Origin: a virus
DNA: 64,000 nt
Reading direction: 5' to 3' (one strand)
IMG/VR virus record: IMGVR_UViG_3300023174_000084
Coordinates: 1-64,000 of that record
Made by a program: the position numbers and the translations under genes
Notes under the pieces: model-generated
The model's input: only the letters and a program-made list of their open reading frames with translations
Told to the model about the DNA's origin: nothing
The model's database searches: none
Part shown: positions 19,751 through 40,698 of the stretch, one piece after another
How positions within the stretch are numbered: the first letter of the stretch is position 1
How the letters are laid out: every line of letters starts with the position of its first letter

Positions 19751-19758
19751 TATTTATC
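19751..19758 (-). promoter_or_regulatory. possible late promoter variant (GATAAATA)
   Basis: overlaps the DUF4338 stop codon, 20 nt upstream of the nuclease-like ATG. Confidence 0.45.
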
Positions 19759-20860
19759 TGATAATTTGAATGTCTTTTCCTGAAGTCCAAACTTCAAGCT
19801 CTGTTCTCAATCGATCTTCAGCCTTCAATGTATCATAACGATTCGTTGCTTTATTTTTCCACCATGTGATAATATTATTCAAATTATGTTTCTCATAATT
19901 TTCACCAGGTAAAAGTTTATCTGTTTTACAGGTAACATAATCAATCATATTCTTGTAACCATAATCGGAAATGTAATATCTCTTTTGTTCTGTAAGTTTC
20001 TTAGCATTATTAATGATTTCATCAAAATTGGCAAGCTCTGGTGTATTCTTTAATGCGGCTCTTGTCAAAGAAATAATTTTCATAGAAATTTTCAGTTTAC
20101 GGCTAGAGATATTATCATCTACAATTTTACCAACTTTACTCTCGACAAAATCACGCAAATCTTCATAAGGCTTACCATGCATCATAGGCAAAAAATCTGA
20201 TTCTGTCAAGCCTTTATATCGAATATATGGTTTCATACCATCATATTGTGAAGATGATTTTGTTGAACCATACAAACTCGTAGTTTCGAATAGACATAGA
20301 TTCATATCATACTTCTTATTGACAATCTCTCTGACCTCATGGGAACAACAAATGGCAGCCAAAAGTTTGCCACCAAGATAATTGAAACCAAATGGTTGAG
20401 ATGGTACAATAACGAAACCCATCATAGAGGAGTCGTTGAATTGTTTACCCCACTCCGGATTCTGCGTAAACACTTGTCCAAGCATTTCGTTTCGTGGTCG
20501 ACAGTTGATGACTGGTGAACCTAACCGAATGAAACCTACGAACTTTCCTGAGTTCTTTTCTTTGACTGCCAGTTTAACATTACGACCAACAGGTGCAATA
20601 TTAATATGTGATGAGGTAATACTCAACAATGTTTCCCATGTTTCAGTTGGTATCTCCAATACTTCCAAATCCATATCGTTTGGATGCATAGAGAAATCGG
20701 AGAATAAATCTTCTTCGATGGGAAACAATGGATTAGTAGATATTTCAGAAAGCGATGCCAACTTTTGGTCACGCATATATTCATCAATGCGATTAAAATT
20801 ACCAAAATAATCTTTAAATGCTTTGGCACAAACCAAAGCATCATCTTTAGATAACATCAT
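19754..20860 (-). CDS. DUF4338/DruA-like protein, paralog 1 (putative GNAT/Mom-like transferase)
   Basis: GRN, IVP.QP.GFNYLGGKLLA, TTSLYG, SQYDG; clearly similar to 39433..40698. Confidence 0.7.
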   Translation of the reverse strand: MMLSKDDALVCAKAFKDYFGNFNRIDEYMRDQKLASLSEISTNPLFPIEEDLFSDFSMHPNDMDLEVLEIPTETWETLLSITSSHINIAPVGRNVKLAVKEKNSGKFVGFIRLGSPVINCRPRNEMLGQVFTQNPEWGKQFNDSSMMGFVIVPSQPFGFNYLGGKLLAAICCSHEVREIVNKKYDMNLCLFETTSLYGSTKSSSQYDGMKPYIRYKGLTESDFLPMMHGKPYEDLRDFVESKVGKIVDDNISSRKLKISMKIISLTRAALKNTPELANFDEIINNAKKLTEQKRYYISDYGYKNMIDYVTCKTDKLLPGENYEKHNLNNIITWWKNKATNRYDTLKAEDRLRTELEVWTSGKDIQIIR

Positions 20861-22251
20861 ACTTTAAATCCACTAAATTGTTTTTTTGGTCTTTCTTCTC
20901 TGGTACCAAATGTGTTTAGTGGTTTATCATGGCCAGCATCAGCAATACCCATCTGTGCAGCTTGCTCAACATCATATAGTTTCATTTTTGCTCTATCAAT
21001 ACCAAGAGTAAATCGTTTATGGAATGTTGGATCATTATATCGGTTTTTCAATTGTTTGACCATTATTTGGCCAAGTTCTTCAAGTTCTTCAGAAGAAATC
21101 AAAGCAAACATCAAGTCTGCGGTGGCGGGAAGTCCGAACGATTCACTCGTGTCCTCAAGTCCCGGATCACTGGAAGTAAATCCTGAACGGGTAGTTTGTG
21201 TAGCAGATACAATAGGAACATTAAACTCAACAGCAAGGCCACGTAATTCTTCTGCAATTGCTTTAACGTAAGTGTAGGAATTAATGTTGCTACCAGCTTT
21301 AATACGAGCACTACAACAGATATTGAGATAGTCAACAAATATAATGTCAGGTATAAAAGACCTCTTGAGATTAAGTTCATTCAATAATGTCCTGAAATGA
21401 ATAGTAGAAGCTGAAGCTGTTGGATATTCTTTAATGATTAATTTGCCAGTAGTTTTTTCACGGACTCTAGCAACTTTTTTATCATACATATCTTTTGGTA
21501 AGTCCATCAAATCATCAATCGTTACATTTAATAAATTAGCATCGATTCGTTCTGCAATCTTTTCTTCACTCATTTCCATAGTGAGGTATAATACATTTTT
21601 GCCTTGAACCATACAGCCAGCAGCCACATGACACATAAAAAGAGATTTACCAACACCAGTGCCTGCAAGAGCAATGTTGAGTGTTTTATTAGGTAAACCA
21701 CCTTTTGTGATTTTGTTAAAGTAGTCGAGGTCAAAAGGTATTCTTTCCTCTTTTCTATGATAGAATTCAAATCGAGCATCTGAGTCCTGTAAATAATCGT
21801 GACCAACTGAACTGTCAAAAGATACAGCTAAAGCATCTGAAAGTATCTTGGGAATCTGACCTTTGTCGTGTTGTTTATCCTTGCCATCGAGAATCGAAAT
21901 AGACCCCAATACTGCATTGTAAATTGCTTTTTCTTGGCAAAACTTTTCTGTTTTGTCAATAAGCCATTGTACCTCGGTTCTTTCTTCCCGATTCTTTTCA
22001 ATCTCCGTAAGATAATCTTCGGCTCTCTGAACTTCATCAGCTGTGAGGTTTCTCTTTTCTTTGACGGCAATACCAAGTGCTTCAATCGTTGGTGTAGTAT
22101 TGTAAGTGTTCGTGAAGGATGTAATCTCATTAAATAAAGTTCTTTCTACACTATCACTAAAGTATTCTGTCTTTACAAATGGTAAAACTTTTCTAAGAAA
22201 GTCCTCATTGTAAATCAGGTTTTTTAATATCGTCTGTTCTAGTTTCATCAA
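20857..22251 (-). CDS. gp41: replicative DNA helicase gp41
   Basis: LAGTGVGKS, TMEMSE, IIKEYPT, VDYLN, SESFGLPATAD, KQLKNRY. Confidence 0.97.
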   Translation of the reverse strand: MMKLEQTILKNLIYNEDFLRKVLPFVKTEYFSDSVERTLFNEITSFTNTYNTTPTIEALGIAVKEKRNLTADEVQRAEDYLTEIEKNREERTEVQWLIDKTEKFCQEKAIYNAVLGSISILDGKDKQHDKGQIPKILSDALAVSFDSSVGHDYLQDSDARFEFYHRKEERIPFDLDYFNKITKGGLPNKTLNIALAGTGVGKSLFMCHVAAGCMVQGKNVLYLTMEMSEEKIAERIDANLLNVTIDDLMDLPKDMYDKKVARVREKTTGKLIIKEYPTASASTIHFRTLLNELNLKRSFIPDIIFVDYLNICCSARIKAGSNINSYTYVKAIAEELRGLAVEFNVPIVSATQTTRSGFTSSDPGLEDTSESFGLPATADLMFALISSEELEELGQIMVKQLKNRYNDPTFHKRFTLGIDRAKMKLYDVEQAAQMGIADAGHDKPLNTFGTREERPKKQFSGFKV

Positions 22252-22528
22252 TCACTTCCTGCTCAACATTAGAGCTCATTATTTCTACAAGTAAATCACC
22301 AAGATAATTCTTAAAATTCAAATCTTTTTCCAACTTCTTTGAACTATCAACTGTGGATTCTATCACATCATAAGCAAAAAGTAAATAGACCTGGTCATTT
22401 TCTTCTTTGAACTTTACCTTACCATATTTAAATACAGTATCTTTATATTTACCTTCCAAAAGTCGAATATGAACCGCTGTGGTATCATCTTTTGGATAAA
22501 TGAAACAATAATCTAATCCTTCAATCAT
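22205..22528 (-). CDS. hypothetical protein at the gp40 position
   Basis: lies between uvsX and gp41, as T4 gene 40 does; no sequence proof. Confidence 0.55.
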   Translation of the reverse strand: MIEGLDYCFIYPKDDTTAVHIRLLEGKYKDTVFKYGKVKFKEENDQVYLLFAYDVIESTVDSSKKLEKDLNFKNYLGDLLVEIMSSNVEQEVIDETRTDDIKKPDLQ

Positions 22529-23145
22529 GACATAGGCCTATAATTTATAAATTGTGACATACAATATCTACCATCACCAGATAATGTTACTTCTGAAACC
22601 ATAGAAACTCTATTAACTTTATGATGATAAGCACCAGGAAAAATTACTACCATATTATTTTTTGGAATAATTTCCAAATTAAAATCTGTTAATACTAATT
22701 CTCCTCCAAAAAATTTTTTAGGTTCTTTAAAGAAATAACTTAATATTGTTAAAACTGAGTGGTCTGGATGTTCAAAGTAACTATCACCATTCTCATAATA
22801 TGATATTAGTGTATGGTCAACATTAGAATATTCTAGAGCTCTAAAGATAGGATTAATATCTGTTAATTTTTGTGCCACATTTTTTTCAAAAATTTTCCTA
22901 TTAATTCTTAAAATATTGGAAATATTCCTATTTAAATATACATCATCCAAAAATAATCCCACATTCGATTTAAAATTTCCTTCTGGTGAAATTGCTGACT
23001 GAGTATCTTCAGCTGAAAGTAATTTATCTTTACTGGTTAAAAACTCAAGTTCTTGCCAGATTAATTTTAATTCTTCTTTGGAATAAAAATCTTGAATTGT
23101 AACAAGAGAACAATTTTGAATTTTTGGAGTTTCAATTACCATCAT
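22525..23145 (-). CDS. 2OG-Fe(II) oxygenase
   Basis: HPD, GGEL, FP..YHH.V, R.C facial-triad pattern. Confidence 0.85.
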   Translation of the reverse strand: MMVIETPKIQNCSLVTIQDFYSKEELKLIWQELEFLTSKDKLLSAEDTQSAISPEGNFKSNVGLFLDDVYLNRNISNILRINRKIFEKNVAQKLTDINPIFRALEYSNVDHTLISYYENGDSYFEHPDHSVLTILSYFFKEPKKFFGGELVLTDFNLEIIPKNNMVVIFPGAYHHKVNRVSMVSEVTLSGDGRYCMSQFINYRPMS

Positions 23146-23326
23146 TTATTTTTTCTTTTTGGCGTTTTTCTTGCATAGTTTCTTCTTTTACCAATTTTCT
23201 TGGATTATCAGAATGATGGCTATGTTTAATGCCATTTTTTTGTTCATAAACATCATGTGCAATCGTTTTATGCCGTCTTTTAGAATGTTTTACTTTTGTT
23301 TCAATATCACTCATCTTCAGCACCAT
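23132..23326 (-). CDS. hypothetical basic protein
   Basis: K.KHSKR and NPRK..KE.T.QE pattern; overlaps both neighbours. Confidence 0.55.
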   Translation of the reverse strand: MVLKMSDIETKVKHSKRRHKTIAHDVYEQKNGIKHSHHSDNPRKLVKEETMQEKRQKEKINDGN

Positions 23327-24392
23327 TCATAGTTTCAACTTCAAAAACTTCATCAATATCATCTTGCATAATACTACCAGTAGCAATACGATATTTACTT
23401 TCAATAAAATCACGGAAAGATTTTTGTTTTAAAATTGGTAACCAGAATTCTTTGGTGTCTGTTTCTTTAATTCGATACTTCTTATCTTCTATAACCCCTG
23501 ACTCGGTATCCACTTTACTATACCATCCGTTTGAGGGTTTGACAACATGGCCTGATTCAATAGCGAGGTCAAGTAACCCACTCCAACGGCTAATACCACC
23601 ATCAAAAGAAACGGTAACTGGTATCTTAGATTTTTCTTTAACATATCTAGACTTTTCAACATTGATGATAAAATTATATCCAACAATTTCTGTACCTTCC
23701 TTTTCTTGCTGACGGCCAAGAATAAAAATGTTATCAGCCGAATAATATGAACCTGTGCCACCACCAACGATGTCTTTAGGGAACATACCAATTTCTTTGT
23801 AAGTGTGATTGACCACAACCATTGGAACATCTTTCATTGTAAGATGTGGTGTAACCATACGGAATAAACTCTTAACTTGTTTTGCTCTTGACATATCGGC
23901 AACTGATTTGCCTTCAAGTGCATCATCAACTTCTTTCTTTGAAGCTAGATTACCAATTGAATCAATTACAATAATCAAATGGTCACCTCGCTCAAGAGCT
24001 GTTAATTGTTGCATTACATCAAACTTTAATTGCTCAATATCAGTAAGAGGTGTATGAAGAACTCTGTTGGTATCAATACCGAAGCTATCAAAATAAGACT
24101 GAGGAGTGCCAAACTCAGAATCGTAAAATAATAACGCTGCATCATTATATTTGTCCATGTAAGATTTTGCCATCAATAATGAGAAAGCAGTCTTAAAATG
24201 TTTTGATGGCCCAGCCCACATTGTAAGACCCGGTGTTAAACCACCATCCAATTTACCAGACAATGCCACATTAATAATGGGAATTGCCGTAGGTATCATA
24301 TCTTTATCAGTAAAGAACTTTGATTTGGAAAGAATTGCTGATTCTTTGATACTACTGTTTTTTTTAATCTTGTCAAGTATACTCATATTCAT
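23307..24392 (-). CDS. uvsX: UvsX RecA-like recombinase
   Basis: AGPSKHFKT, FYDSEFG, IDSIGNLAS, DMSRAK, EKSRYVKEK. Confidence 0.97.
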   Translation of the reverse strand: MNMSILDKIKKNSSIKESAILSKSKFFTDKDMIPTAIPIINVALSGKLDGGLTPGLTMWAGPSKHFKTAFSLLMAKSYMDKYNDAALLFYDSEFGTPQSYFDSFGIDTNRVLHTPLTDIEQLKFDVMQQLTALERGDHLIIVIDSIGNLASKKEVDDALEGKSVADMSRAKQVKSLFRMVTPHLTMKDVPMVVVNHTYKEIGMFPKDIVGGGTGSYYSADNIFILGRQQEKEGTEIVGYNFIINVEKSRYVKEKSKIPVTVSFDGGISRWSGLLDLAIESGHVVKPSNGWYSKVDTESGVIEDKKYRIKETDTKEFWLPILKQKSFRDFIESKYRIATGSIMQDDIDEVFEVETMNGAEDE

Positions 24393-24395
24393 CCT

Positions 24396-25319
24396 TTAAA
24401 ATTTACCACCATCTAATTCTTTTTTTTCTTTAAAAGCCAATTCAGCAGCTTCATCATATTTACTTATACGATCCGTCTGACGCCTCGGAAAGCCCCTCTT
24501 TTTGTTTGTAGGTGCAGGCTCCTCCTCGATTGTAACCAAGTTTTCTTTAGGGACCTCGACCGTACCATTCGGCCGTTCTTTAACTGTTTGAACCTTTTTT
24601 TTACTATGTTTAACAGTTTTAGATGCAGTAATGGGGGACGATATTTTATTTCCATATTTTTCTCGTAGTGATATGTTTCCTGCTATCAATAATAACACAG
24701 CTAACGGGTCAAATACAAGCATAATTATAAAGATTACCAGCCTTACAGCCTTATCTAGTGAACCATCACCAGTACCAAAAAATATGTCTGCCACATATTT
24801 GATTGGTCCAACATCTGCCACTAATTTGTTTTCTTCTTTGAGAAGTGGTAATCTTTTCTTATTGATTTCGGATAATTCTTTTTGTGTTGCTTGAATTTGT
24901 CGGTCAATTTGAACAGAAGCTGTTTCAGGATTACCAGCACGCTTCAGTAAATAACTTAATCTTTCTTCGGCAATCTTTTGTTGTGAATTGAGTGTTTTTA
25001 ATTCAGCAGTATTGGCACCAGATTCTAATGTAGAATCAATATGTGATTTGGCCAAGAAACCAAAAATACCCATTGAAGTAATAAACATCAAGACAACAAC
25101 AGCAGCCGTCAGATATGACTTCAATAAAATATTGGTCTTTTGCCAATTGTTATACAACCAAGATGCGGTGACAAGTTTGGCGAATTCAAGTGATGAACCC
25201 ATAACAACTACAGGCCAAAATGCACCAGAGAATATTAATGCAAGACCAATAACTGAATAATAAGCTGCAATACCAGATAATAAAAATGCAGCCAGAAATG
25301 TTAGTATGATTGTTATCAT
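24396..25319 (-). CDS. membrane protein with coiled coil
   Basis: several TM helices, ITSMGIFGFL, VGPIKY, VFDPLAVLLL. Confidence 0.7.
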   Translation of the reverse strand: MITIILTFLAAFLLSGIAAYYSVIGLALIFSGAFWPVVVMGSSLEFAKLVTASWLYNNWQKTNILLKSYLTAAVVVLMFITSMGIFGFLAKSHIDSTLESGANTAELKTLNSQQKIAEERLSYLLKRAGNPETASVQIDRQIQATQKELSEINKKRLPLLKEENKLVADVGPIKYVADIFFGTGDGSLDKAVRLVIFIIMLVFDPLAVLLLIAGNISLREKYGNKISSPITASKTVKHSKKKVQTVKERPNGTVEVPKENLVTIEEEPAPTNKKRGFPRRQTDRISKYDEAAELAFKEKKELDGGKF

Positions 25320-28161: not shown

Positions 28162-28203
28162 TTATTATCTCCAATGACTAAATAACTATGTAGTTGAATT
28201 GAA

Positions 28204-28232
28204 ATTATATCTAATTTATCTCTCCGTGTCAA
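28204..28232 (-). promoter_or_regulatory. sigma70-type promoter for the gp43 operon
   Basis: TTGACA-17-TATAAT, exact consensus. Confidence 0.85.
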
Positions 28233-29015: not shown

Positions 29016-29720
29016 ATGAACGAACTAATTTATGTTTTACTGACAACTCATCTAACAATCATCGCCGTAACTCTATATCTACATCGTAGCCAAACTCATC
29101 AAGGTGTTACATTTCATCCAGTAGTAAATAATTTTTTTCGTTTTTGGTTATGGTTAACCACAGGTATGGTTACAAAACAATGGGTAGCCATTCATCGTAA
29201 ACACCATGGTATGACCGACCAAAAAGGTGACCCACATTCACCTCAATTATTTGGTATCTGGAAAGTTTTATTTGGTGGTGCACTATTATATAATACAGCC
29301 AGTAAAGATACTCTAATGGTTAATGCGTTTGGTAGAGGAACACCAGATGATTGGATGGAAAAAAATGTATATAGCAAACACAGTAGATTAGGAATTACTT
29401 TGTTATTACTAATTAATTTACTTTGTTTTTCTTGGTGGGGTTTACTGATTTGGGGTATTCAAATGTTGTGGATACCTTTGTTAGCTGCAGGTGTAATCAA
29501 TGGAATTGGTCACTATTGGGGGTATAGAAATATCGAAACAAGAGAATCATCTAGAAATATTTTCCCTATTGGTCTTATTATTGGTGGCGAAGAGCTTCAC
29601 AATAATCACCATGCTGATGCTGGTTCTGCCAAGCTTAGTAGGAAGTGGTTTGAATTAGATATTGGTTGGTTCTATATTAAATTTTTAGAGAAACTTAAAC
29701 TAGCAACACTCAAGCATTAA
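29016..29720 (+). CDS. membrane fatty-acid (delta-9-type) desaturase
   Basis: three His boxes HRSQTH, HRKHH, HNNHH; DPHSP; DIGW. Confidence 0.92.
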   Translation: MNELIYVLLTTHLTIIAVTLYLHRSQTHQGVTFHPVVNNFFRFWLWLTTGMVTKQWVAIHRKHHGMTDQKGDPHSPQLFGIWKVLFGGALLYNTASKDTLMVNAFGRGTPDDWMEKNVYSKHSRLGITLLLLINLLCFSWWGLLIWGIQMLWIPLLAAGVINGIGHYWGYRNIETRESSRNIFPIGLIIGGEELHNNHHADAGSAKLSRKWFELDIGWFYIKFLEKLKLATLKH

Positions 29721-30715: not shown

Positions 30716-30790
30716 TGGTTGCGGGGGAAGGAATCGAACCTACGGCCCCTGGATTATGAGTCCAATGCTCTACCTCTGAGCTACCCCGCT
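30716..30790 (-). tRNA. tRNA-Met(CAT), initiator-like
   Basis: cloverleaf with encoded CCA, CTCATAA loop, unpaired A1:A72. Confidence 0.85.
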
Positions 30791-31390: not shown

Positions 31391-31460
31391 TGGAGCGGTG
31401 GTCTAGATTTGCACTAGATGAGTAAGTTGGACACCTACTCTGGTTCTATACCCCGACCGC
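31391..31460 (-). ncRNA. non-canonical tRNA-Gly(TCC)-like RNA
   Basis: GCGGT/ACCGC acceptor stem plus U73 and CCA, 7-bp stem with TGTCCAA loop, TCTAG/CTAGA T-stem with TGCAAAT loop, 3-bp D-arm. Confidence 0.75.
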
Positions 31461-31468: not shown

Positions 31469-31497
31469 ATTATAACATTATATAGGTTGATTGTCAA
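31469..31497 (-). promoter_or_regulatory. sigma70 promoter driving the tRNA-Gly-like RNA
   Basis: TTGACA-17-TATAAT with TGn extension; -10 box ends 8 nt before the RNA 5' end. Confidence 0.88.
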
Positions 31498-32516: not shown

Positions 32517-32520
32517 ATTT

Positions 32521-32597
32521 TGGTGGGCCTTGTAGGACTCGAACCTACGACCAAAGGATTATGAGTCCTCTGCTCTAACCAACTGAGCTAAAGGCCC
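32521..32597 (-). tRNA. tRNA with CAT anticodon, probably Ile2 (lysidine type)
   Basis: GGGCCTT acceptor and GGTTAGAGC D-arm resemble bacterial Ile2; encoded CCA. Confidence 0.8.
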
Positions 32598-32604
32598 CTT
32601 TGGT

Positions 32605-33002: not shown

Positions 33003-33199
33003 TTCACATACTCCATGCTATCTTTTTTCATATAATGAACTACTTGATTCTTTTTTGGATCAGGCATTTGCTTTACAACAGCAATAAATTTCTCACCATC
33101 AATTTCTTCAATTGGCCAATTCGAATAAGTATAGTAGATATCCGTGCCATTTCTGGCACGAACTTTTTTGAGAACGGATTTAGATTTCACATTTTTCAT
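32999..33199 (-). CDS. hypothetical protein
   Basis: first gene after a consensus promoter. Confidence 0.6.
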   Translation of the reverse strand: MKNVKSKSVLKKVRARNGTDIYYTYSNWPIEEIDGEKFIAVVKQMPDPKKNQVVHYMKKDSMEYVK

Positions 33200-33205
33200 A
33201 ATATA

Positions 33206-33234
33206 ATTATAACAGATTTATAGGAGGTTGTCAA
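33206..33234 (-). promoter_or_regulatory. sigma70-type promoter
   Basis: TTGACA-17-TATAAT with TGn extension. Confidence 0.85.
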
Positions 33235-33249
33235 GACCTCCTATAATTA

Positions 33250-33324
33250 TTACCGAGGTTTAGTTTTTTGTGGATAATTCAACTGTTCCCATTCCTCATC
33301 GGATACAGGCCACCAGTTACTCAT
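33250..33324 (-). CDS. 24-aa peptide coupled to Hsp20 (not in ORF track)
   Basis: MSNWWPVSDEEWEQLNYPQKTKPR; AAGGA upstream; overlaps the Hsp20 stop. Confidence 0.4.
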   Translation of the reverse strand: MSNWWPVSDEEWEQLNYPQKTKPR

Positions 33325-33781
33325 CTTTCTTTTCCTTGATGGTAATCTTTTTAATGGTATCTTGAGCCTGCACAAGATTTTCCAACCAAACACGCAACAT
33401 ACCATTTACCATTTCGGCTTGACCAATTTCAATCTTGTCAGCCAATGTAAATGAACGTGTAAAGTCACGGTTAGCAATTCCCTTAAATAAGAAATTTTCA
33501 TCTTCTTTAAGTTCATTCTCTTTTGCAGAACCTTTGATGACCAACTTATTACCTTCAAGTGTGATTTCAATATCAGACTTGGCAAAACCAGCAACTGCCA
33601 TTTCAATGACATACTTGTTTTTGCTTACTTGTTTGATATTGTATGGGGGATATGATGGAACATTCTTGGCAACGTTTTTGGTTACTTCTTCAATATCCTT
33701 AAAGAATTTATCGTAACCAACGGTGAATGGATCCAACGATTTATGAAAGTCAAATAGACTTGGTAATAGACTTGTAGTCAT
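33317..33781 (-). CDS. small heat-shock protein Hsp20 (IbpA-like)
   Basis: YPPYNI, IEMAVAGF, KGIA.R.F.RSFTL, A.MVNGML. Confidence 0.93.
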   Translation of the reverse strand: MTTSLLPSLFDFHKSLDPFTVGYDKFFKDIEEVTKNVAKNVPSYPPYNIKQVSKNKYVIEMAVAGFAKSDIEITLEGNKLVIKGSAKENELKEDENFLFKGIANRDFTRSFTLADKIEIGQAEMVNGMLRVWLENLVQAQDTIKKITIKEKKDE

Positions 33782-33842
33782 GCTTAGTTCTCCTTATTTT
33801 AAGCGAGTTAATCAAAAATTGCGGCCTCATTGAGCACCGCAC
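33782..33842 (-). promoter_or_regulatory. ROSE-like RNA thermometer in the hsp20 leader
   Basis: CUCGCUU pairs with the SD AAGGAG with a bulged G; upstream UGCGG..CCGCA hairpin. Confidence 0.65.
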
Positions 33843-33846
33843 CATA

Positions 33847-33875
33847 AGTATATTAGTATTTATACTACTTGTCAA
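33847..33875 (-). promoter_or_regulatory. nested sigma70 and late promoter of hsp20
   Basis: TTGACA-17-TATACT; TATAAATA (33857-33864) lies inside the spacer. Confidence 0.75.
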
Positions 33876-34279
33876 TAGTCCTGAGTTTTTTTACCAATAT
33901 TATATTTTGGTACTAATTGCCAATCGTCCTTCTCTTTATGAGATAATATCTTGATTTGACTAAGGAAAATAGGTGGTGGATTCTCAATCTGTTGTTTTCG
34001 GACAACAGTTACCAGACCCCAATCTTCCAATAGTTTTACTATGGCATTCCTACGGGATAAGTCATTTTCGGTAATATCAGTTGGTTTGCCATCCAAGGCA
34101 AACAATTCTTTAAAGTGGACAATATAGTATTGACCTCTTTTGTGTAGTATATGACACGATTGGAATAGAGTCCTGTCTTTTTTCGAAGCCACACCAATGC
34201 GTGTGAGGGTTTCACGGACTTTGAGGAAATCGTCTTGTTCATTCAAAGTCACTTCAACTAAATCAGTAATGTTAATCAT
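33872..34279 (-). CDS. regA: RegA translational repressor
   Basis: DDFLKVRETLTRIG, QSCHILHK.G.Y.IVHFKELF.LDG, LVPKYNIG. Confidence 0.96.
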   Translation of the reverse strand: MINITDLVEVTLNEQDDFLKVRETLTRIGVASKKDRTLFQSCHILHKRGQYYIVHFKELFALDGKPTDITENDLSRRNAIVKLLEDWGLVTVVRKQQIENPPPIFLSQIKILSHKEKDDWQLVPKYNIGKKTQDY

Positions 34280-34659
34280 GTTCCGCCTTTATCTGTTCTT
34301 CTTTTTATTTCAGCGATTTGTTCATCATTAAGAATACGCAAAGCTTCCTTAGCCTTCTGGTTAGAGTAACCGAAGTAGGTTTTTACACATTCTATGTTTT
34401 TATCGACCTCTGATTTCTGCCACGGTTGAAATTTCCGTTTCATAGGTCTGATGGTATTTAGAAGATACGAATATTGAAGGTCTTTTTCCAACTCCGGGTA
34501 AAGGTTCATCTCATTGGCATATAAAACACAGTCGATATGGTATGACAAGGCTCTATTGACCACAAAGGGTGTGTAGTCTTTGGCATCTATATCATCGTGT
34601 ATTACAGACTTCTTAGTTTGAAGAATAGACGGTATAATTTCTTTGAATAGATCAGGCAT
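34276..34659 (-). CDS. gp62: clamp loader small subunit gp62
   Basis: Y.PFVVNRALS, ANEMN, YFGYS..KA.EAL.IL; synteny. Confidence 0.92.
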   Translation of the reverse strand: MPDLFKEIIPSILQTKKSVIHDDIDAKDYTPFVVNRALSYHIDCVLYANEMNLYPELEKDLQYSYLLNTIRPMKRKFQPWQKSEVDKNIECVKTYFGYSNQKAKEALRILNDEQIAEIKRRTDKGGT

Positions 34660-35347
34660 GATTTATCTTATCAAAATTGCAAGGAGTTAAATCTCCAATA
34701 AAAAATTTATGACAAAAATCAAATAATTCTTTTTCACTTAAATTTGGAAGTGTTTTCATTTCGTAATATTTTTTAAGATTATTATAAATTTTATTTAAAG
34801 GTAATCCCACATAATTTCTATAATGCATACACAAGATATATTCCAATGGCCAAAACCAGCTGGTCTCACAATTCACATTATCCATAATTATTTTAGAAAA
34901 ATTTATATATTCGTATATTGGCAAATTATCCGCATAACTGTCAATTAAAAGTGTATCACATTTTCCAACAAAAGAACGAGCATCAATGTTAATAACATTA
35001 ATCTTTTCCATGATTTCAGGATTAAATTTTTTATGATAGTCTATTACTAATTTATTTGACTCCAATACTGTTATTTTTGTAACATTTTGATTATTCAATA
35101 ACCAATTTTCTCTTAGAGCAAATCCTAATCCTGTGCAAATACAATGCCCTTTAGCCAATTTGAAATGTGAGTATATTTCAAAAACTTCTCTTAAAGATTT
35201 GTCCCAGACCATAAATTGCTGGCCATTTTGTTGCATTATCCAAGTATCTTGAAATTTTTTAATGCTTAATTCATGAATGTCACTTTCAACAATTTGTGGT
35301 TCTTTGAATCCTAAATCATATAAAAAATTTTCATTTAACAAATTCAT
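34652..35347 (-). CDS. putative SAM-dependent methyltransferase-like insert
   Basis: AKG..ICTGLGF, ITVLE, DA, DTLLID; AT-rich; splits gp44 from gp62. Confidence 0.55.
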   Translation of the reverse strand: MNLLNENFLYDLGFKEPQIVESDIHELSIKKFQDTWIMQQNGQQFMVWDKSLREVFEIYSHFKLAKGHCICTGLGFALRENWLLNNQNVTKITVLESNKLVIDYHKKFNPEIMEKINVINIDARSFVGKCDTLLIDSYADNLPIYEYINFSKIIMDNVNCETSWFWPLEYILCMHYRNYVGLPLNKIYNNLKKYYEMKTLPNLSEKELFDFCHKFFIGDLTPCNFDKINHA

Positions 35348-36276
35348 TTAAACTCACAGTCAACCATAATTTCTGTTAAACAAGCAATCAAATTAATCTC
35401 TGCATCAGCAACAAAAGCAGCCTGATATTGATACTTAGCAAGAATTAAAACCAACTGTGGAACAGATTGTGGTTTTAACTGTTCATATAAACTGTCGTAT
35501 AGTTTACGGAAGATTCTGGCTGGATCATTGTCAAGATTGTTAGTGACCCATTTCCTGGCGGAGGCGAAGTCTTTTTCTTTGAGGGCTCGAAGTAAATCAG
35601 CAAGTTGTATATCACTAACACTAGAAAGAATATCTTTGCCAATTGAACCAGAAACTGAATGTCGTTGAAGTTCATTAAGAATTCTCCGATTATCCGGAAA
35701 ATGTTTTGTAATGATTGCAGCCACGACTTCTTTATCATATGTAATTCCTTCTTGCTGTAATATCCATTCTACTCGTTTAAAGAATTGAGATGCCATCTTT
35801 GGCTTCTGTCCGTTAATTTTAAAATCAATAACGGTGCATCGAGAATGAATCGGATCAATAATACGATTCTTAAAATTACAAGTAAAAATGAAAGAGCAAT
35901 TAGAAGCAAACTCCTCGATTGCACCACGCATTGCAGGTTGAGTTGAATTTGGATTCAGATAATCTGCTTCGTCAATGATAATGACTTTGCGGCCACCCAT
36001 CAAAGAGACCGATGAAGCATAATTTTTGATTTTGGTTCGTAAAACATCAATACCCGATTCGTCAGAACCATTGATGATAATATAATCACAACCTACTTCT
36101 TCACAGAGAGCTTTGGCGATAGTAGTTTTACCAACACCAGCCGAACCTGAAAGAAGTAGATTAGGTATTTCTTTACGATTTACATATTCTTGAAATGTGG
36201 ATTTGATTGTATCAGGTAAGATACAATCTTCCACTTTAGATGGTCGATACTTTTCGACCCATAATAAATGTTCCAT
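35344..36276 (-). CDS. gp44: clamp loader large subunit gp44
   Basis: LWVEKYRP, G.AGVGKTT, IDEAD, IHSRC. Confidence 0.96.
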   Translation of the reverse strand: MEHLLWVEKYRPSKVEDCILPDTIKSTFQEYVNRKEIPNLLLSGSAGVGKTTIAKALCEEVGCDYIIINGSDESGIDVLRTKIKNYASSVSLMGGRKVIIIDEADYLNPNSTQPAMRGAIEEFASNCSFIFTCNFKNRIIDPIHSRCTVIDFKINGQKPKMASQFFKRVEWILQQEGITYDKEVVAAIITKHFPDNRRILNELQRHSVSGSIGKDILSSVSDIQLADLLRALKEKDFASARKWVTNNLDNDPARIFRKLYDSLYEQLKPQSVPQLVLILAKYQYQAAFVADAEINLIACLTEIMVDCEFK

Positions 36277-36311
36277 TCACACACCTCATAATAAAATAAT
36301 ACAACAAAATA

Positions 36312-36503
36312 CTACTCAATTTGTCCTTGCAAGACACCAACAACATCAATCTGTGATTCTTCAACGGCAACTGAACCGTTAACTAAACTAATTGCTGTTT
36401 TATCCTTTAAGTCACCTTCTACAATTGGAAAAATAGCCACAACATATTTTGGATTAACGGCAACTTGTTTTTTTGAAACTACATCAGTGAAATAAACTAA
36501 CAT
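36312..36503 (-). CDS. small FlbD/SwrD-like protein
   Basis: VNP..V.AI...T.I.L.NG...V.ES..DV pattern. Confidence 0.45.
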   Translation of the reverse strand: MLVYFTDVVSKKQVAVNPKYVVAIFPIVEGDLKDKTAISLVNGSVAVEESQIDVVGVLQGQIE

Positions 36504-36505
36504 AA

Positions 36506-37180
36506 TTATCCTTCAAACTTAGATTCTTTGGATTCAGTTGCAACCCAATATTGAATATCAACAGACTTGTTTTTAAACGTAGCCAAACCTTTTGCAGAGA
36601 TTTCAACATCATATGCACCAGGAATCATTTTAAGATTATCGGTCAAAAATACCATCTTAAAGTTCTTGCCGTTGCCTTCACCAACTTCAATAGAATTGGT
36701 GTGTGCTGAATCATCTTTAGCGTTGAATGTGGTCAGTTTAATTGAACCACCATCAGACTCAACAGCGATGTGTGGTGATTGCAGAATAGAAGCACTCTTT
36801 AACAAATCGGAGAAATCTTCTTTAGTGAGTGTGAAAGTAACATCAACCGATGGCAAACTTAATTCTTTGTCTGGTGCGGTGACAATCATTTCTTTGGCTG
36901 TCTTACGATACTTGGTTGATTTCTTAGTACCACTTTTGAAGATGACATTTTTATCATCAAATTCAATCTCGGTATTATCAAACATAGAATGAACCGACAA
37001 GAATTGATTTAAATCATACACACAGAAATCTTGTGGAAATTCATCTTTTAGTGTGGCTTTGGCAAGAACAGTTTTGCCAGATGACATGGTACGAATTGTA
37101 TTACCTTTCTTAAACTCAATACCAGAGTTGATTGTTGCAAAATTTTTCAATACATCAAGTGTATCTTTAGTTAACTTCAT
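36506..37180 (-). CDS. gp45: sliding clamp gp45
   Basis: LKNFATINSGI, F.VYDLNQFLS, NLKMIPG.YDV, YWVA.E. Confidence 0.95.
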   Translation of the reverse strand: MKLTKDTLDVLKNFATINSGIEFKKGNTIRTMSSGKTVLAKATLKDEFPQDFCVYDLNQFLSVHSMFDNTEIEFDDKNVIFKSGTKKSTKYRKTAKEMIVTAPDKELSLPSVDVTFTLTKEDFSDLLKSASILQSPHIAVESDGGSIKLTTFNAKDDSAHTNSIEVGEGNGKNFKMVFLTDNLKMIPGAYDVEISAKGLATFKNKSVDIQYWVATESKESKFEG

Positions 37181-37209
37181 TTGATTCTCCATTATGTAAA
37201 AGTCCTTTA

Positions 37210-37238
37210 ATCATACTACATTCAAAATACATTGTCAA
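37210..37238 (-). promoter_or_regulatory. sigma70-type promoter for the gp45 operon
   Basis: TTGACA-17-TATGAT. Confidence 0.75.
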
Positions 37239-37239
37239 G

Positions 37240-37638
37240 TTATTCTTTGGAATACTTAACATCATGCTCATACAAAAACATTAGGCAACACATGGCGTGT
37301 GCTAAGTGGTGTATACCAGATTCAGGATCAACTTGTTCGCCTTGTTTCCAAGCCCAAACATGCCGTTGTAAGGCATCAAAATACCTGCGTTTAGAATCAG
37401 GCACTTTTTGCCAGTTATCTCGTTCATATTTCTGAGCACCAAAGGTTAACACTTTAACCGTTTCTTCTAGTGCGAGTGGTGGTAATAAACCATATTCTAA
37501 TTTACCACCATCAAATTTACGGCCGATAGGTAAAGGTGGATTCAATTGTAAAGATTCGGTATATTTTTTCATCTCTGGTGAAGCCAAAGCGACATTATCA
37601 TCTGTGCCACGGTTACCCATACTGTCTTGCCAGGCCAT
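37240..37638 (-). CDS. dATP/dGTP diphosphohydrolase (DUF5664-like)
   Basis: GRKFDGGK..Y.LLP, VLTFGA.KY...NW, A..RH, DPESG..HLAHA.CC. Confidence 0.85.
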   Translation of the reverse strand: MAWQDSMGNRGTDDNVALASPEMKKYTESLQLNPPLPIGRKFDGGKLEYGLLPPLALEETVKVLTFGAQKYERDNWQKVPDSKRRYFDALQRHVWAWKQGEQVDPESGIHHLAHAMCCLMFLYEHDVKYSKE

Positions 37639-37654
37639 TACATTTCTCCAAACA

Positions 37655-38164
37655 TTAATTCGTTTCTTTTAATTTAAAGGCAACAGTCACTCTTAACTCT
37701 TTACAATGCCTTGTGGGTTCTAATCCAGCGTGTAGAATCGATGAGTTAAAAAGTAAACCTGTATTTGGAATAGGAGACTGTTTATAGATATTATCATTAT
37801 TGACAAAAATAGTTTCTCCACCCCAAATATAATTCCACCAAGGATTTACATAATATAAAAAAGTTTTATATGTATCATCATTAAATTCATTATCTGTATG
37901 TAAAGATCCACACATTCCATAGGTTTGGCCATTTGCATACACTTGTATCAAATCAAACTTTTTATTAGAAAGTTTTTCAATTTTAGACAACATATTTTCT
38001 GTAAAAAAAACATCTTTGATCAGATCCATATAGAATATGGTAAATTCCTCATTACGATCAATACTGCATCCACAAAATTCCCAAGAATTTCCGTTGACTG
38101 TTTTTTTTACAACATATTCATGTTCTTCTTTTGATAAGAAGTTTGAATATTCTTTGATAAACAT
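37655..38164 (-). CDS. 2OG-Fe(II) oxygenase
   Basis: LHTD, WGGET, F.S.ILH, R.TVAF. Confidence 0.85.
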   Translation of the reverse strand: MFIKEYSNFLSKEEHEYVVKKTVNGNSWEFCGCSIDRNEEFTIFYMDLIKDVFFTENMLSKIEKLSNKKFDLIQVYANGQTYGMCGSLHTDNEFNDDTYKTFLYYVNPWWNYIWGGETIFVNNDNIYKQSPIPNTGLLFNSSILHAGLEPTRHCKELRVTVAFKLKETN

Positions 38165-38982
38165 TACATTTCACCAACAAAATTAGCCACAGCAGGCATA
38201 TCTCCTTGGAAATGATATGTACCAATATGCGATGTTCTCATCCATGGACACAACCAAATCGAACCACCAATCTTGCGCCACATCTGGCAGAACATATAAT
38301 CTTCTGATAGATAACGATCAGAACCCCCTCCAACAATAGATTCTTTTGTATCAATCACTGTATCAAAGAAAGCATGAATATAACGTGTACCATCAAAATT
38401 GGCTTGGCCAACATGGTCTGGTTTATATCGAATCATTGGATATGCTTCTTCCATCTTTGCAAAGACTTCACGTTTAATCATCATGAAGCCAGTACCAATC
38501 TCTAATACTTCTAATGGTTGTGTTACAGAAAACTGTGCGGTACCTTTAACAGGGTTAAAAACATAATCACCAGTAACTTTTTCTAAAGTCTGTGCATCAA
38601 TGTCTGGTTTTCTTTCAACGGCTTTCTTAACAGATTTCCACTTAATTGCTTTCTTTGGATAAGGACCGCCTGCAACTTCTTTGTCGAGAGCTAACAGAGC
38701 AATAACATCTTGTGGATTAAATGAAATATCAGAATCAAGAAACAACATATGAGTGCAATCTGAACGATGAATAAATTCATCTACCAAATAATTTCTTGCA
38801 CGAGTAATTAATGATTCATTGAAAAGAAATGAAAATTTAATCTGTATTCCATATTGAAAACAAATACCTTGAAGGTCTAGACAAGCTTTCATATACAGAC
38901 CGTGATTCATGCCACCATACATTGGTGTAGCCACAAACAAGCTCTTTTTTTGTAATTCTTCTTTTTTAATTGAAATTTCCAT
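38164..38982 (-). CDS. GT-A fold glycosyltransferase-like protein
   Basis: VATPMYGG, ESLITRARN, FLDSDI, GTGFMMIKR, LSEDY.FC, H.G. Confidence 0.75.
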   Translation of the reverse strand: MEISIKKEELQKKSLFVATPMYGGMNHGLYMKACLDLQGICFQYGIQIKFSFLFNESLITRARNYLVDEFIHRSDCTHMLFLDSDISFNPQDVIALLALDKEVAGGPYPKKAIKWKSVKKAVERKPDIDAQTLEKVTGDYVFNPVKGTAQFSVTQPLEVLEIGTGFMMIKREVFAKMEEAYPMIRYKPDHVGQANFDGTRYIHAFFDTVIDTKESIVGGGSDRYLSEDYMFCQMWRKIGGSIWLCPWMRTSHIGTYHFQGDMPAVANFVGEM

Positions 38983-38999
38983 TTGTTCTCCGAAAAATA

Positions 39000-39032
39000 A
39001 AAAAAAAGGGACTCCACTTCCGTGGAATCCCT
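39000..39032 (-). terminator. intrinsic terminator
   Basis: AGGGATTCCAC-GGAA-GTGGAGTCCCT hairpin followed by a U run. Confidence 0.8.
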
Positions 39033-39047
39033 AAGCGCTAGGTTCGA

Positions 39048-39317
39048 TTAACCTGCGTAAGCACGAACACCGTTAGCACGGCACTGAGCCTTGAAAGACT
39101 TGCTTGGTGTACCAAGACGGTAGAAAGTCTTTTTCTGTCCATCAACATTTTTCTTGTTTGCGTAGATGGCATAACCTTCTTGGCGCAATTCAGAAATACG
39201 AGCAGAAACGTTAGTGATACCGAAACGGCGTTGAGCTTGTTCGGTTGTAAAGGTGTTGTAACCTTGAGTTTGCATTAAAGCATTGAGCATACGCTCTTTG
39301 GCGGATAATTTAGCCAT
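39048..39317 (-). CDS. small winged-HTH DNA-binding protein
   Basis: T..QA..RFGI.N.SARISELRQEGY.I; own promoter and terminator; CGT-rich codon use. Confidence 0.7.
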   Translation of the reverse strand: MAKLSAKERMLNALMQTQGYNTFTTEQAQRRFGITNVSARISELRQEGYAIYANKKNVDGQKKTFYRLGTPSKSFKAQCRANGVRAYAG

Positions 39318-39381
39318 TTTTTAAGACTCCATATTAAAGTTAATAACAAAAATCTCGTCAACTTCTTCAACGAGTAAACAC

Positions 39382-39410
39382 ATCATATCATTATATAGTG
39401 TGTGTGTCAA
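39382..39410 (-). promoter_or_regulatory. sigma70-type promoter
   Basis: TTGACA-17-TATGAT with TGn extension. Confidence 0.8.
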
Positions 39411-39432
39411 GTATATTTGCGGTATACTTGTT

Positions 39433-40698
39433 TTATCTGCCAACTTGTGGCAAATATTTGGCCTTGGTTTCTTCCCAAGACATTTTGATTAGGTCATCAT
39501 AGAAAAGTGTTTCATATGAAACATTATTTTTTTTCTGTAATTGCCTAATACGACCCTTAGCATACTTGATTTTCCAAATATTGGCAAGGGCTTCTTCACT
39601 AGTATCAAACGACTTTACCAGTTCAGAATCGGTAATTTCTTTACGGAGAAATTCATTGGTATTATTATAGAGTGGACTAAAATAGATACCACGTTGATGT
39701 TCGGTGCGGATTAATTCTTTTGGTATTTGTAACTTGGAATATGCAAAATTTAATGAACGATTTTTGTGGTCACGTTTGAGTGGAAGACCTTGTTGATTTT
39801 TGGCATCCCACCATTCAAAATATTTACGAGTATGATTTTCTTTAATCCAATCAAACACCAATTTTTTGGTGGCTCTCGTTGGTTCAAATGCAACTGAACC
39901 TGATGAGAATCCCATTTGATTCCAATGTTCAAGTCCATCATATTGAGATAATCCACCAGCTTTAGTTTTGCCATATAATGATGTTGTGGTAACACCAACT
40001 AGTGTATCGCCATATTGCCGTTTCCAATCTTTCTGAACTGTATCAGATAAACACATCAATGCCAACAATTTACCACCCATGTAATTAAAACCAAGTGGCT
40101 GTAATGGAACGATTGTAGAACCGATTGCGGTGTGATTAATCATGTGTTGTTGTGTTTTGACATCTCGTGACCATCCGATTGCGTTATCTCTCGGAGTCAA
40201 GTCCAGGAAGTCTGAGGAGATGCATATCACACCAAGATATTTTTTTGTTACCTCATCGGTAAGAATATAAAATAGATTACGGCCAATGTTAGAATTGTTT
40301 TTCATTGTAGATGAGAATGTGCGAATGGCATTCCATCTTTCTGCTTCAGGTCCATTTGATAAAACCATAACAGGTTTTAGTTTTTCAAAATCATCAGGAT
40401 CTTTTGGCATCCAAAAATTTCTTTTGACTTCATTAATCATTTCTTCTTGTTCGGGATACACCATTTGTAATTCTTCACCAAACAACGTAGATACCTCATG
40501 GACAGGATATCTTTCTTTAATTTCACACCATTTTTGATACAAAGTATATTCACGAACATCCATTTGAGAAGCATAGGTTAAATCCTCAATGAGGACTTTC
40601 TTCATATGTTCTTCATCAATATGTTCAAAAGAACTGGTAGGATTTTTTTCTTGCCAGTCTTGCCATTGTTTTTCTACAAATTCAATCGGTGTTGCCAT
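39433..40698 (-). CDS. DUF4338/DruA-like protein, paralog 2 (putative GNAT/Mom-like transferase)
   Basis: IGRNL, PRD..IGW, IVPLQPLGFNYMGGKLLA, TTTSLYG, SQYDG, HQRGIYF. Confidence 0.72.
   Translation of the reverse strand: MATPIEFVEKQWQDWQEKNPTSSFEHIDEEHMKKVLIEDLTYASQMDVREYTLYQKWCEIKERYPVHEVSTLFGEELQMVYPEQEEMINEVKRNFWMPKDPDDFEKLKPVMVLSNGPEAERWNAIRTFSSTMKNNSNIGRNLFYILTDEVTKKYLGVICISSDFLDLTPRDNAIGWSRDVKTQQHMINHTAIGSTIVPLQPLGFNYMGGKLLALMCLSDTVQKDWKRQYGDTLVGVTTTSLYGKTKAGGLSQYDGLEHWNQMGFSSGSVAFEPTRATKKLVFDWIKENHTRKYFEWWDAKNQQGLPLKRDHKNRSLNFAYSKLQIPKELIRTEHQRGIYFSPLYNNTNEFLRKEITDSELVKSFDTSEEALANIWKIKYAKGRIRQLQKKNNVSYETLFYDDLIKMSWEETKAKYLPQVGR

What the first reader, a model, noticed from the sequence alone, without database searches (positions are those of the whole stretch)
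19754..40698. Candidate new system: two DUF4338 (GNAT/Mom-like) paralogs plus a private tRNA-Gly for aminoacyl-tRNA-dependent DNA modification
Seen: 19754..20860 and 39433..40698 are divergent paralogs sharing GRN, PR(N/D), IVP.QP.GFNY(L/M)GGKLLA, TTSLYG and SQYDG. Both sit among replication genes; one is coupled to gp41, the other lies near a glycosyltransferase and a dATP/dGTP diphosphohydrolase. The odd tRNA-Gly lies between them. Established: Mu Mom is a GNAT-fold enzyme that makes N6-carbamoylmethyl-adenine, and FemABX and L/F-transferases are GNAT-fold enzymes that use aminoacyl-tRNA donors. I recall that Gly-tRNA has been reported as the Mom co-substrate; this needs checking. Inference: the GGKLL segment matches the GNAT beta4-alpha3 loop, and the pair (perhaps a heterodimer resembling the tandem GNAT domains of FemX) transfers glycine from the phage RNA onto DNA bases to resist restriction, without competing with EF-Tu for host tRNA. 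The GNAT assignment is my pattern match, not a search result.
Basis: partly seen in the sequence, partly recalled or inferred. Interest (0 to 1): 0.85.

Follow-up and report, generated by a model that had tools for sequence, protein, structure and literature searches.

The report
Phage DruA enzymes with private tRNA-Gly
A SAR11-type T4-like phage carries two acyltransferase-fold (DruA family) enzymes and a shrunken glycine tRNA that looks loadable with glycine but unfit for decoding; in related phages this RNA sits right beside such an enzyme gene, which points to an untested system that uses its own activated glycine, perhaps to modify DNA.

Summary
Window 19754-20860(-) (P1) and 39433-40698(-) (P2) are divergent paralogs (34% identity, E 7e-25). 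Both pass Pfam DruA/DUF4338.

AlphaFold models show one GNAT domain each. The best solved match for both is phage Mu Mom, the Gly-tRNA-dependent DNA modifier, but it ties with ordinary GNATs and profile comparison finds no sequence link.

ARAGORN and Rfam call no tRNA-Gly. It keeps the acceptor end and an NCC loop.

Enzyme and RNA are linked in relatives:
- In a sister clade, 65 of 77 P2 genes have a 63-70-nt mini tRNA-Gly 24-64 nt downstream.
- Near P1 genes of another clade, all 29 called tRNAs are tRNA-Gly (UCC or ACC).
- All six RNA-bearing records of 30 kb or more carry DruA genes.

Against parts of the reading:
- Cyanophage P1 genes lack any such RNA (0/18).
- Each paralog occurs alone elsewhere, so an obligate heterodimer is unlikely.
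- The acceptor, DNA or otherwise, is untested.

This scan's earlier AI notes flagged the same idea on other DNA (at least 43 genomes). I found no paper on it.

The parts
19754..20860 (-). P1: DruA/DUF4338-family protein, 368 aa, with a single GNAT-fold domain (about residues 59-324). Its start overlaps the stop of the gp41 helicase gene.
   Evidence: Pfam PF14236 8.1e-9; phrog_19197 4.9e-139; AF2 pLDDT 88; VIA-align top hit Mom 8bv8_B, Z 10.2, 169 aligned, rank 1 of 48,161 chains.
39433..40698 (-). P2: DruA/DUF4338-family paralog, 421 aa. GNAT-fold core at about residues 105-365 with a helical insertion (about 265-335), plus an N-terminal helical/beta-hairpin domain. Its start overlaps the stop of a peptide deformylase gene by 1 nt.
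   Evidence: Pfam PF14236 1.6e-20; AF2 pLDDT 95.6, pTM 0.91; VIA-align top hit Mom 8bv8_B, Z 9.8, rmsd 3.7, 167 aligned; orthologs in HTVC008M and Mosig.
31391..31460 (-). 70-nt non-canonical tRNA-Gly derivative. It has a GCGG..CCGC acceptor stem, U73 and an encoded CCA. The loop is UGUCCAA (G33, UCC). The D-loop lacks GG and the T-loop is UGCAAAU (UGC in place of UUC).
   Evidence: Fold z -3.7; conserved in 14 relatives; 5 covarying pairs; model R1 also finds the tRNA-Gly(ACC)-like RNAs of HTVC008M and Mosig and canonical tRNA-Gly in relatives; not called by ARAGORN or Rfam.
31469..31497 (-). Consensus sigma-70 promoter (TTGACA-17-TATAAT, 12/12, extended -10). Its -10 box ends 8 nt upstream of the RNA 5' end.
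   Evidence: sequence read.
40698..41372 (-). Context only: peptide deformylase gene directly upstream of P2. The same pairing occurs in phage Mosig.
   Evidence: phrog_2890 9.6e-37; Mosig annotation.
37240..39317 (-). Context only: dATP/dGTP diphosphohydrolase-domain gene (37240-37638), 2OG-Fe(II) oxygenase (37655-38164), possible GT-A-like gene (38164-38982, sub-threshold) and a small winged-helix protein (39048-39317) downstream of P2. No link to P2 was shown.
   Evidence: Pfam hits; PHROGs.

Best explanation
P1 and P2 are two paralogous DruA-family enzymes, each with one GNAT (acyltransferase) fold. They most likely work with the phage's own non-decoding tRNA-Gly derivative. Proposed mechanism (inferred): the 70-nt RNA is made early from its own consensus promoter, already carrying CCA. 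Host GlyRS charges it, because the RNA keeps the bacterial glycine identity set (G1-C72, C2-G71, G3-C70, U73, C35, C36). It escapes translation because the D-loop GG, the T-loop UUC and a normal anticodon loop are lost. The DruA-type enzyme then takes the glycyl group from this carrier and transfers it to an acceptor, as Mom does with Gly-tRNAGly and the Fem transferases do with staphylococcal non-proteogenic tRNAGly. The acceptor is unknown. Replicating phage DNA is the leading candidate, given the replication-module position and Mom as nearest structure, but a protein or small-molecule acceptor is not excluded. Shown here: family membership, fold, reality and conservation of the RNA, and gene linkage in relatives. 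Inferred: charging, donor role, acceptor and biological purpose.
For: Family and fold:
- Family.
- Fold: high-confidence AF2 models. All top structural matches are GNATs, and Mom 8bv8 is first for both proteins (Z 9.8 and 10.2, 167-169 aligned). In the unbiased scan of 48,161 chains Mom is first and FemA fourth.
- DUF4338 is called a GNAT in PMC10853773.
- Mom uses Gly-tRNAGly as co-substrate (PMC13219725).

The RNA:
- It covaries and has a 12/12 promoter.
- Across about 110 homologs the loop always keeps CC while position 34 varies between U, A and C. Many copies have 4-nt loops (CCCC or CCCA) that cannot decode.
- The T-loop has UGC/AGC/GGC instead of UUC, as in staphylococcal non-proteogenic tRNAGly (PMC7826273).

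Linkage:
- 65 of 77 P2-type genes of a sister clade (63-65% identical to window P2) have a mini tRNA-Gly 24-64 nt downstream on the same strand.
- Within 3 kb of 80 P1-type genes of another clade, all 29 ARAGORN-called tRNAs are Gly (21 UCC, 8 ACC), and 16 further uncalled Gly-like RNAs are present. All lie on the same strand, in at least 5 different positions.
- The same pattern scan gave no hit in 80 cyanophage-type loci.
- All 6 RNA-bearing records of 30 kb or more carry DruA genes, 4 of them both paralogs.
- HTVC008M's only called tRNA is a Gly(ACC) non-canonical copy.
Against: - There is no sequence-level relation to the Mom family: no Pfam Mom hit and hhalign probability 0.1%.
- Mom's structural lead over ordinary acetyl-CoA GNATs is under 1 Z unit, so it is a tie.
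- The conserved QP.G.N..GGK loop sits where GNATs bind the CoA pyrophosphate, so an acyl-CoA donor is not excluded.
- In this window the RNA lies 8-10 kb from both genes, inside a tRNA cluster at a site (next to hsp20) that also holds a tRNA-Gly or Gly-like RNA in the three relatives examined here (S-SSM7, HTVC008M, Mosig).
- Cyanophage P1 genes lack any Gly RNA (0/18 loci; S-CAM9, S-PRM1 and S-T4 whole genomes).
- P2-like genes at 42-69% identity in MAG contigs show no RNA within their flanks.
- Most linkage cases come from related T4-like phages, so they are not fully independent.
- SAR11 hosts rarely have R-M systems (PMC7029224), which weakens the anti-restriction rationale.
- No chemistry was tested.
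Confidence: 0.5

Rival explanations
1. The enzymes are ordinary acyl-CoA-dependent GNATs, and the Gly-like RNA is their substrate, target or regulator rather than a donor. One example would be N-acetylation of the glycyl-RNA, as TacT-type toxins do to Gly-tRNAGly. Another would be the RNA acting as a scaffold.
For: The fold ties with many acetyl-CoA enzymes. An invariant Gly-rich loop lies at the CoA-pyrophosphate position. TacT is a GNAT acting on Gly-tRNAGly (PMC13219725, section 13). Gene linkage fits substrate as well as donor.
Against: A phage gains nothing obvious from acetylating its own decoy. The two tRNA-donor GNAT families, Mom and FemA, rank 1 and 4 of 48,161 chains. The retained CCA and glycine identity set suggest that charging matters.
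Confidence: 0.17
2. There is no functional coupling. The RNA is a degenerating or specialised tRNA-Gly (translational helper, decoy for a host tRNA-targeting defence, or processing signal) that shares accessory-gene neighbourhoods with DruA-type genes. The DruA proteins do something unrelated.
For: In the window the RNA sits in a tRNA cluster with Met, Thr and Met, 8-10 kb from both genes. Canonical tRNA-Gly also occurs in DruA-negative cyanophages S-SKS1 and S-CAM1. P1 exists without any Gly RNA in cyanophages.
Against: All 29 called tRNAs within 3 kb of P1 genes are Gly, in five or more arrangements. Direct 3' adjacency occurs in 65 of 77 P2 loci across diverged RNA subtypes. Four-nt loops and ACC anticodons argue against decoding.
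Confidence: 0.15
3. The phage DruA homologs are defence-related: Druantia-derived superinfection exclusion, or a decoy against host Druantia, acting without any tRNA.
For: The family name and PADLOC hits. Phold noted DruA-like structures in six Synechococcus phages (10.1101/2025.08.05.668817).
Against: No DruB-E partners or large helicase lie nearby. The genes are embedded in the replication module and translationally coupled to gp41 or gp44/gp62. The enzyme-like motifs are invariant.
Confidence: 0.08
4. One reading: P1 and P2 form an obligate heterodimer that mimics the tandem GNAT domains of FemX.
For: Both paralogs co-occur in this phage, in HTVC008M and in 4 of 6 long RNA-bearing records. 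Mom itself is a dimer (PMC13219725).
Against: Mosig has P2 only, about 20 cyanophages have P1 only, and each paralog has its own adjacent Gly RNA in different clades. The genes lie 18.5 kb apart in different transcription units.
Confidence: 0.05

Closest known systems
Bacteriophage Mu Mom (Pfam PF25680; PDB 8bv8), a GNAT that transfers glycine from Gly-tRNAGly to N6 of adenine in dsDNA (PMC13219725)
   Same: Phage-encoded. Single GNAT fold with a helical insertion late in the fold. Best solved structural match of both P1 and P2 (Z 10.2 and 9.8). Genomic tie to tRNA-Gly.
   Different: No detectable sequence relation (hhalign 0.1%). P1 and P2 are 130-180 aa longer, with extra N- and C-terminal domains. 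Mom uses host tRNA, whereas here a dedicated non-decoding RNA is encoded. Mom's catalytic residues were not mapped. The acceptor is unknown.
Staphylococcal non-proteogenic tRNAGly (NP1-3) with the FmhB/FemA/FemB transferases (PMC7826273)
   Same: Extra tRNA-Gly copies that keep GlyRS charging but carry UGC instead of UUC in the T-loop and altered D and T arms. They are used as glycine donors outside translation by GNAT-fold enzymes. FemA is rank 4 for P1.
   Different: Fem proteins have tandem GNAT domains and act on lipid II. The phage RNAs are far more reduced (63-70 nt, some with 4-nt loops). The system is viral.
DruA of the type I Druantia defence system (Pfam PF14236)
   Same: Same Pfam family, above the gathering score. 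The function of DruA itself is unknown.
   Different: Not in a DruABCDE operon. Sits in a T4-like replication module. Five bacterial DruA-like loci examined showed no Gly RNA.

Membership tests
Pfam PF14236 DruA / DUF4338 | HMM score above the curated gathering cut-off (27 bits) | tested here: met
   P1 scores 35.5 bits and P2 73.9 bits; confirmed on the whole record.
Type I Druantia system | DruA encoded with DruB-DruE, including the large DruE helicase | tested here: not met
   Neighbours are gp41, UvsX, gp43, clamp and clamp loader, peptide deformylase and others. No ORF above 844 aa lies in the region.
GNAT superfamily | GNAT fold (mixed beta-sheet with the beta4-alpha3 cofactor loop) | tested here: met
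   188 and 210 GNAT chains at Z of 8 or more. All top 50 of 48,161 representatives are GNATs.
GNAT superfamily | Canonical Q/R-x-x-G-x-G/A acetyl-CoA pyrophosphate motif | tested here: inconclusive
   An invariant variant, Q-P-[LF]-G-x-N-x-x-G-G-K, lies at the beta4-alpha3 junction. Cofactor binding was not testable.
Mom family (Pfam PF25680) | Sequence-profile membership | tested here: not met
   No Pfam Mom hit at E up to 1, whereas Mu Mom scores 253 bits. hhalign of A2 or A3 against Mom profile A4 gives probability 0.1%.
Mom family (Pfam PF25680) | Catalytic residues R111, S124, D149 and R151 at equivalent positions | not tested
   No residue-level structural alignment was available from the tools.
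Mom family (Pfam PF25680) | Gly-tRNAGly as co-substrate and dsDNA adenine as acceptor | not testable with these tools
   Only indirect evidence: gene linkage to tRNA-Gly derivatives.
FemABX transferases | Two tandem GNAT domains | tested here: not met
   One GNAT domain per protein: model ranges 59-324 and 105-365. FemA aligns over 141 residues only.
tRNA (Rfam RF00005 / ARAGORN) | Detected as a tRNA by standard models | tested here: not met
   The window RNA is not called by ARAGORN, even in relaxed or mitochondrial modes, nor by Rfam at E up to 5. Its homology to tRNA-Gly is seen only through model R1.
Non-proteogenic tRNAGly (functional class) | Keeps glycine identity elements; T-loop UGC/UGU instead of UUC; poor EF-Tu and ribosome use | tested here: inconclusive
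   The sequence features are met (G1-C72, C2-G71, G3-C70, U73, C35C36, UGC T-loop; PMC7826273). Charging and EF-Tu binding are not testable here.

The most novel reading that the evidence does not exclude
A widespread, unrecognised viral system in aquatic T4-like phages: DruA-family GNAT enzymes that draw activated glycine from a phage-encoded, ribosome-blind mini tRNA-Gly (63-74 nt) to modify phage DNA or another macromolecule. By extension, DruA of type I Druantia would be an aminoacyl-tRNA-dependent transferase.
Probability: 0.3. Interest if true: 0.9.

Novelty: new variant of a known kind. Interest (0 to 1): 0.8.

Why it matters
If true, it would be the second known route by which charged tRNA is used to modify a viral macromolecule, after Mom. 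It would also be the first case of a virus encoding its own non-decoding aminoacyl carrier. The genes are abundant: the two paralogs return 6,289 and 3,620 clusters at 90% identity. P2 also matches 895 clusters at 50% identity. The hypothesis is directly testable for the uncharacterised DruA component of Druantia. It would also explain why pelagiphages reported to have no tRNA (HTVC008M, PMC7029224) carry a conserved tRNA-like gene. HTVC008M and Mosig are cultured, so the test is practical.

Tried and rejected
- PDB sequence search with the DruA profile found nothing relevant.
- Foldseek against the PDB gave only E of 0.01 or weaker.
- hhalign against the single Mu Mom sequence gave one 17-column local match ('QRGIY' to 'QRGVY', probability 1%). 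It was not recovered with the Mom family profile, so I dropped it as evidence.
- Single-protein scans of IMG/VR with the distant representatives P0259 and P0268 found nothing.
- Alignment A2 was too diverse for a genome scan.
So there is no expression evidence and no context for most distant DUF4338 representatives.
- S-SSM7's tRNA-Gly 3.2 kb from its P1 gene looked like cyanophage linkage. The regA-anchored survey (0/18 P1-positive loci) and DruA-negative phages with similar tRNA-Gly rejected that.
- Complex prediction was not used, because I do not claim that P1 and P2 bind.
- The loose pattern GCGGT..CCACCGCTCCA returned 80 listed loci, of which 30 were true family members and the rest chance matches.


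Full report
**What is in the window.** The region is the replication module of a T4-like phage of the Pelagibacter (SAR11) myophage type.
- The record is an IMG/VR contig of 115,580 bp, about 68% complete.
- Its nearest cultured relatives are HTVC008M and Mosig EXVC030M.
- On the minus strand lie gp41 helicase, UvsX, gp43 polymerase, a tRNA cluster, dCMP deaminase, hsp20, regA, gp62/gp44, gp45 and peptide deformylase, among others.
- P1 (19754-20860) starts 4 nt inside the gp41 stop. P2 (39433-40698) starts at the last base of the deformylase gene.

**The two proteins.**
- Both pass the Pfam gathering score for DruA/DUF4338, match PADLOC DruA and fall in phrog_19197, which has no known function.
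- They are abundant. P1 returns 6,289 and P2 3,620 clusters at 90% identity. P2 matches 895 clusters at 50% identity.
- Invariant or nearly invariant positions cluster in GRN, PR(D/N), QP.G.N..GGKL, TTTSLYG, SQY and RGVYF.

**Fold.** AlphaFold2 with diverse alignments gave confident models: P2 pLDDT 95.6 and P1 88.1. Each has one GNAT-type core.
A helical insertion lies before beta6, and there are extra N- and C-terminal parts.
- Foldseek hits were weak, but almost all were GNATs.
- VIA-align placed Mu Mom (8bv8_B) first for both models. For P2: Z 9.8, rmsd 3.7, 167 aligned. For P1: Z 10.2, rmsd 3.8, 169 aligned.
- In the Foldseek-independent scan of 48,161 chains, Mom was rank 1 and FemA rank 4 for P1.
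- The lead over ordinary acetyl-CoA GNATs is below 1 Z unit. It shows the fold, not a specific kinship.
- At sequence level there is none: no Pfam Mom hit and profile-profile probability 0.1% against a 35-member Mom alignment.
- The Aravind group also reads DUF4338 as a GNAT (PMC10853773).
Mom transfers glycine from Gly-tRNAGly to adenine N6 in dsDNA (PMC13219725).

**The RNA.** ARAGORN and Rfam find only tRNA-Met, Thr and Met.
- It folds into a reduced cloverleaf (z -3.7) and is far better conserved than its flanks in relatives.
- It has compensatory changes at 5 pairs, with 99.4% of cells paired.
- A 12/12 sigma-70 consensus promoter ends 8 nt before its 5' end, and CCA is encoded.
- It keeps G1-C72, C2-G71, G3-C70, U73, C35 and C36. 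From general knowledge, this is the bacterial GlyRS identity set.
- It lacks the D-loop GG, has G at position 33, and has UGC instead of UUC in the T-loop. That T-loop substitution is the one described for the non-proteogenic tRNAGly of staphylococci (PMC7826273).
- A covariance model built from it (R1) finds 74-nt homologs with ACC anticodons in HTVC008M and Mosig. In Mosig the RNA lies under an annotated hypothetical CDS.
- In other P2-bearing contigs the model finds 67-69-nt non-canonical versions, often 6 nt from a canonical tRNA-Gly(UCC) that also encodes CCA. The family therefore descends from tRNA-Gly.
- HTVC008M's only ARAGORN-called tRNA is this Gly(ACC) RNA. tRNAscan-based work listed the phage as having none (PMC7029224).

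**Is the RNA tied to the enzymes?** In the window itself the RNA is 8 kb from P2 and 10.5 kb from P1, inside a tRNA cluster, so local evidence is weak. Relatives are informative.
1. A pattern scan of IMG/VR recovered 30 true family members. All six records of 30 kb or more carry DruA genes, four of them both paralogs.
2. In three contigs whose P2 is 63-65% identical to the window's, the RNA lies 45-60 nt directly 3' of P2 on the same strand.
3. Expanding that clade: of 77 loci with enough downstream sequence, 65 have a 63-70-nt mini tRNA-Gly starting 24-64 nt after P2.
4. Around 80 P1-type genes of a further clade (about 50% identical to the window's P1), every one of the 29 ARAGORN-called tRNAs within 3 kb is tRNA-Gly (21 UCC, 8 ACC). 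Sixteen more Gly-like RNAs are uncalled. All are on the P1 strand. They sit in at least five positions: 11-17 nt upstream, 48-82 nt downstream, about 0.4-0.55 kb and 1.1-1.5 kb downstream, and about 0.6-0.8 kb upstream.
5. Two MAG contigs show the same (L132, L133).
6. The same scan found nothing in 80 cyanophage-type loci, so its false-positive rate is low.
7. Across all copies the central loop always contains CC while the preceding base varies. Many loops are only 4 nt (CCCC, CCCA), which is incompatible with decoding.

**Limits and contrary evidence.**
- Cyanophage P1 genes sit between gp44 and gp62 in roughly a third of regA-anchored loci. None of the 18 has a Gly RNA nearby, including 0 of 9 with the full regA-gp43 interval.
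- S-CAM9, S-PRM1 and S-T4 show no R1 match genome-wide.
- Similar tRNA-Gly genes occur in DruA-negative S-SKS1 and S-CAM1.
- P2-like genes at 42-69% identity on MAG contigs have no RNA in their flanks, and five bacterial DruA-like loci have none.
- The enzyme family therefore does not always need a private RNA. It could use host tRNA, as Mom does, or another donor.
- The linked cases come from related T4-like phages and are not fully independent.
- The heterodimer idea fits poorly, because each paralog occurs alone and each has its own adjacent RNA in some clade.
- DNA as acceptor rests only on gene position and the Mom resemblance. The deformylase next to P2 here and in Mosig equally allows a protein N-terminal acceptor.
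- SAR11 genomes rarely encode R-M (PMC7029224), which weakens the restriction-evasion rationale.

**Comparison with what is known, and novelty.**
- The proteins are members of DruA/DUF4338 and of the GNAT fold class.
- They are not members of the Mom family by sequence, nor of the tandem-domain Fem family.
- Functionally the best analogy combines Mom (a viral, tRNA-Gly-dependent GNAT) with the staphylococcal NP-tRNAGly/Fem arrangement (a dedicated non-decoding donor).
- I found no paper linking DruA-type proteins to tRNA. The Phold preprint only notes DruA-like folds in six Synechococcus phages.
- Earlier AI notes of this scan describe the same idea in at least 43 other genomes. I treated them as leads and reproduced the linkage independently.

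**Verdict.**
- The enzyme-RNA coupling is well supported by comparative genomics.
- Glycyl transfer is plausible.
- The acceptor and the biological role are open.

Noticed in passing
L140:11540-11613 (HTVC008M) and L082:19802-19875 (Mosig): Both cultured pelagimyophages carry a 74-nt non-canonical tRNA-Gly-like RNA with an ACC anticodon. In Mosig it is annotated as a hypothetical CDS (Mosig_000011). HTVC008M is listed in the literature as having no tRNA.
   Followed up: partly
L143:5820-6161 (HTVC008M); L149:11967-12305 (Mosig): ARAGORN calls tmRNA-like genes (flagged tmRNA*) with tag peptides in both pelagiphage genomes.
   Followed up: no
window 33776-33843 (-): Sub-threshold match to the ROSE_3 RNA thermometer (36.7 bits against gathering 43) in the hsp20 leader.
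   Followed up: no
window 37655-38164 (-): PHROGs names it DNA endonuclease V (phrog_274), but Pfam finds a 2OG-Fe(II) oxygenase domain (1.7e-8). The PHROG label looks wrong for this protein.
   Followed up: partly
window 29016-29720 (+): A fatty-acid desaturase family gene (PF00487, 2.9e-16) on the opposite strand inside the replication module.
   Followed up: no
window 30716-30790 and 32521-32597 (-): Two tRNA genes with CAU anticodons. One may be an initiator or a lysidine-type tRNA-Ile. The second ends 4 nt before the dCMP deaminase start codon.
   Followed up: no
L358-L428 (IMG/VR relatives), 24-64 nt after the P2 gene: The commonest mini tRNA-Gly there is only 63 nt, with a 4-nt CCCC or CCCA loop and a UUUAACU T-loop. 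It is much more reduced than the window's 70-nt copy.
   Followed up: partly
L112:900-2030 (IMG/VR record G003): A close relative carries an array of about ten tRNA genes next to its canonical and non-canonical tRNA-Gly pair, whereas the window phage has three tRNAs.
   Followed up: no
L083:5001-6122 (S-SCSM2R) and S-CREM1 (hit H37): GenBank records already label P1 orthologs 'methylcarbamoylase mom' and 'iron-binding protein'. These are presumably structure-based transfers from Mom, with no experimental basis stated.
   Followed up: no
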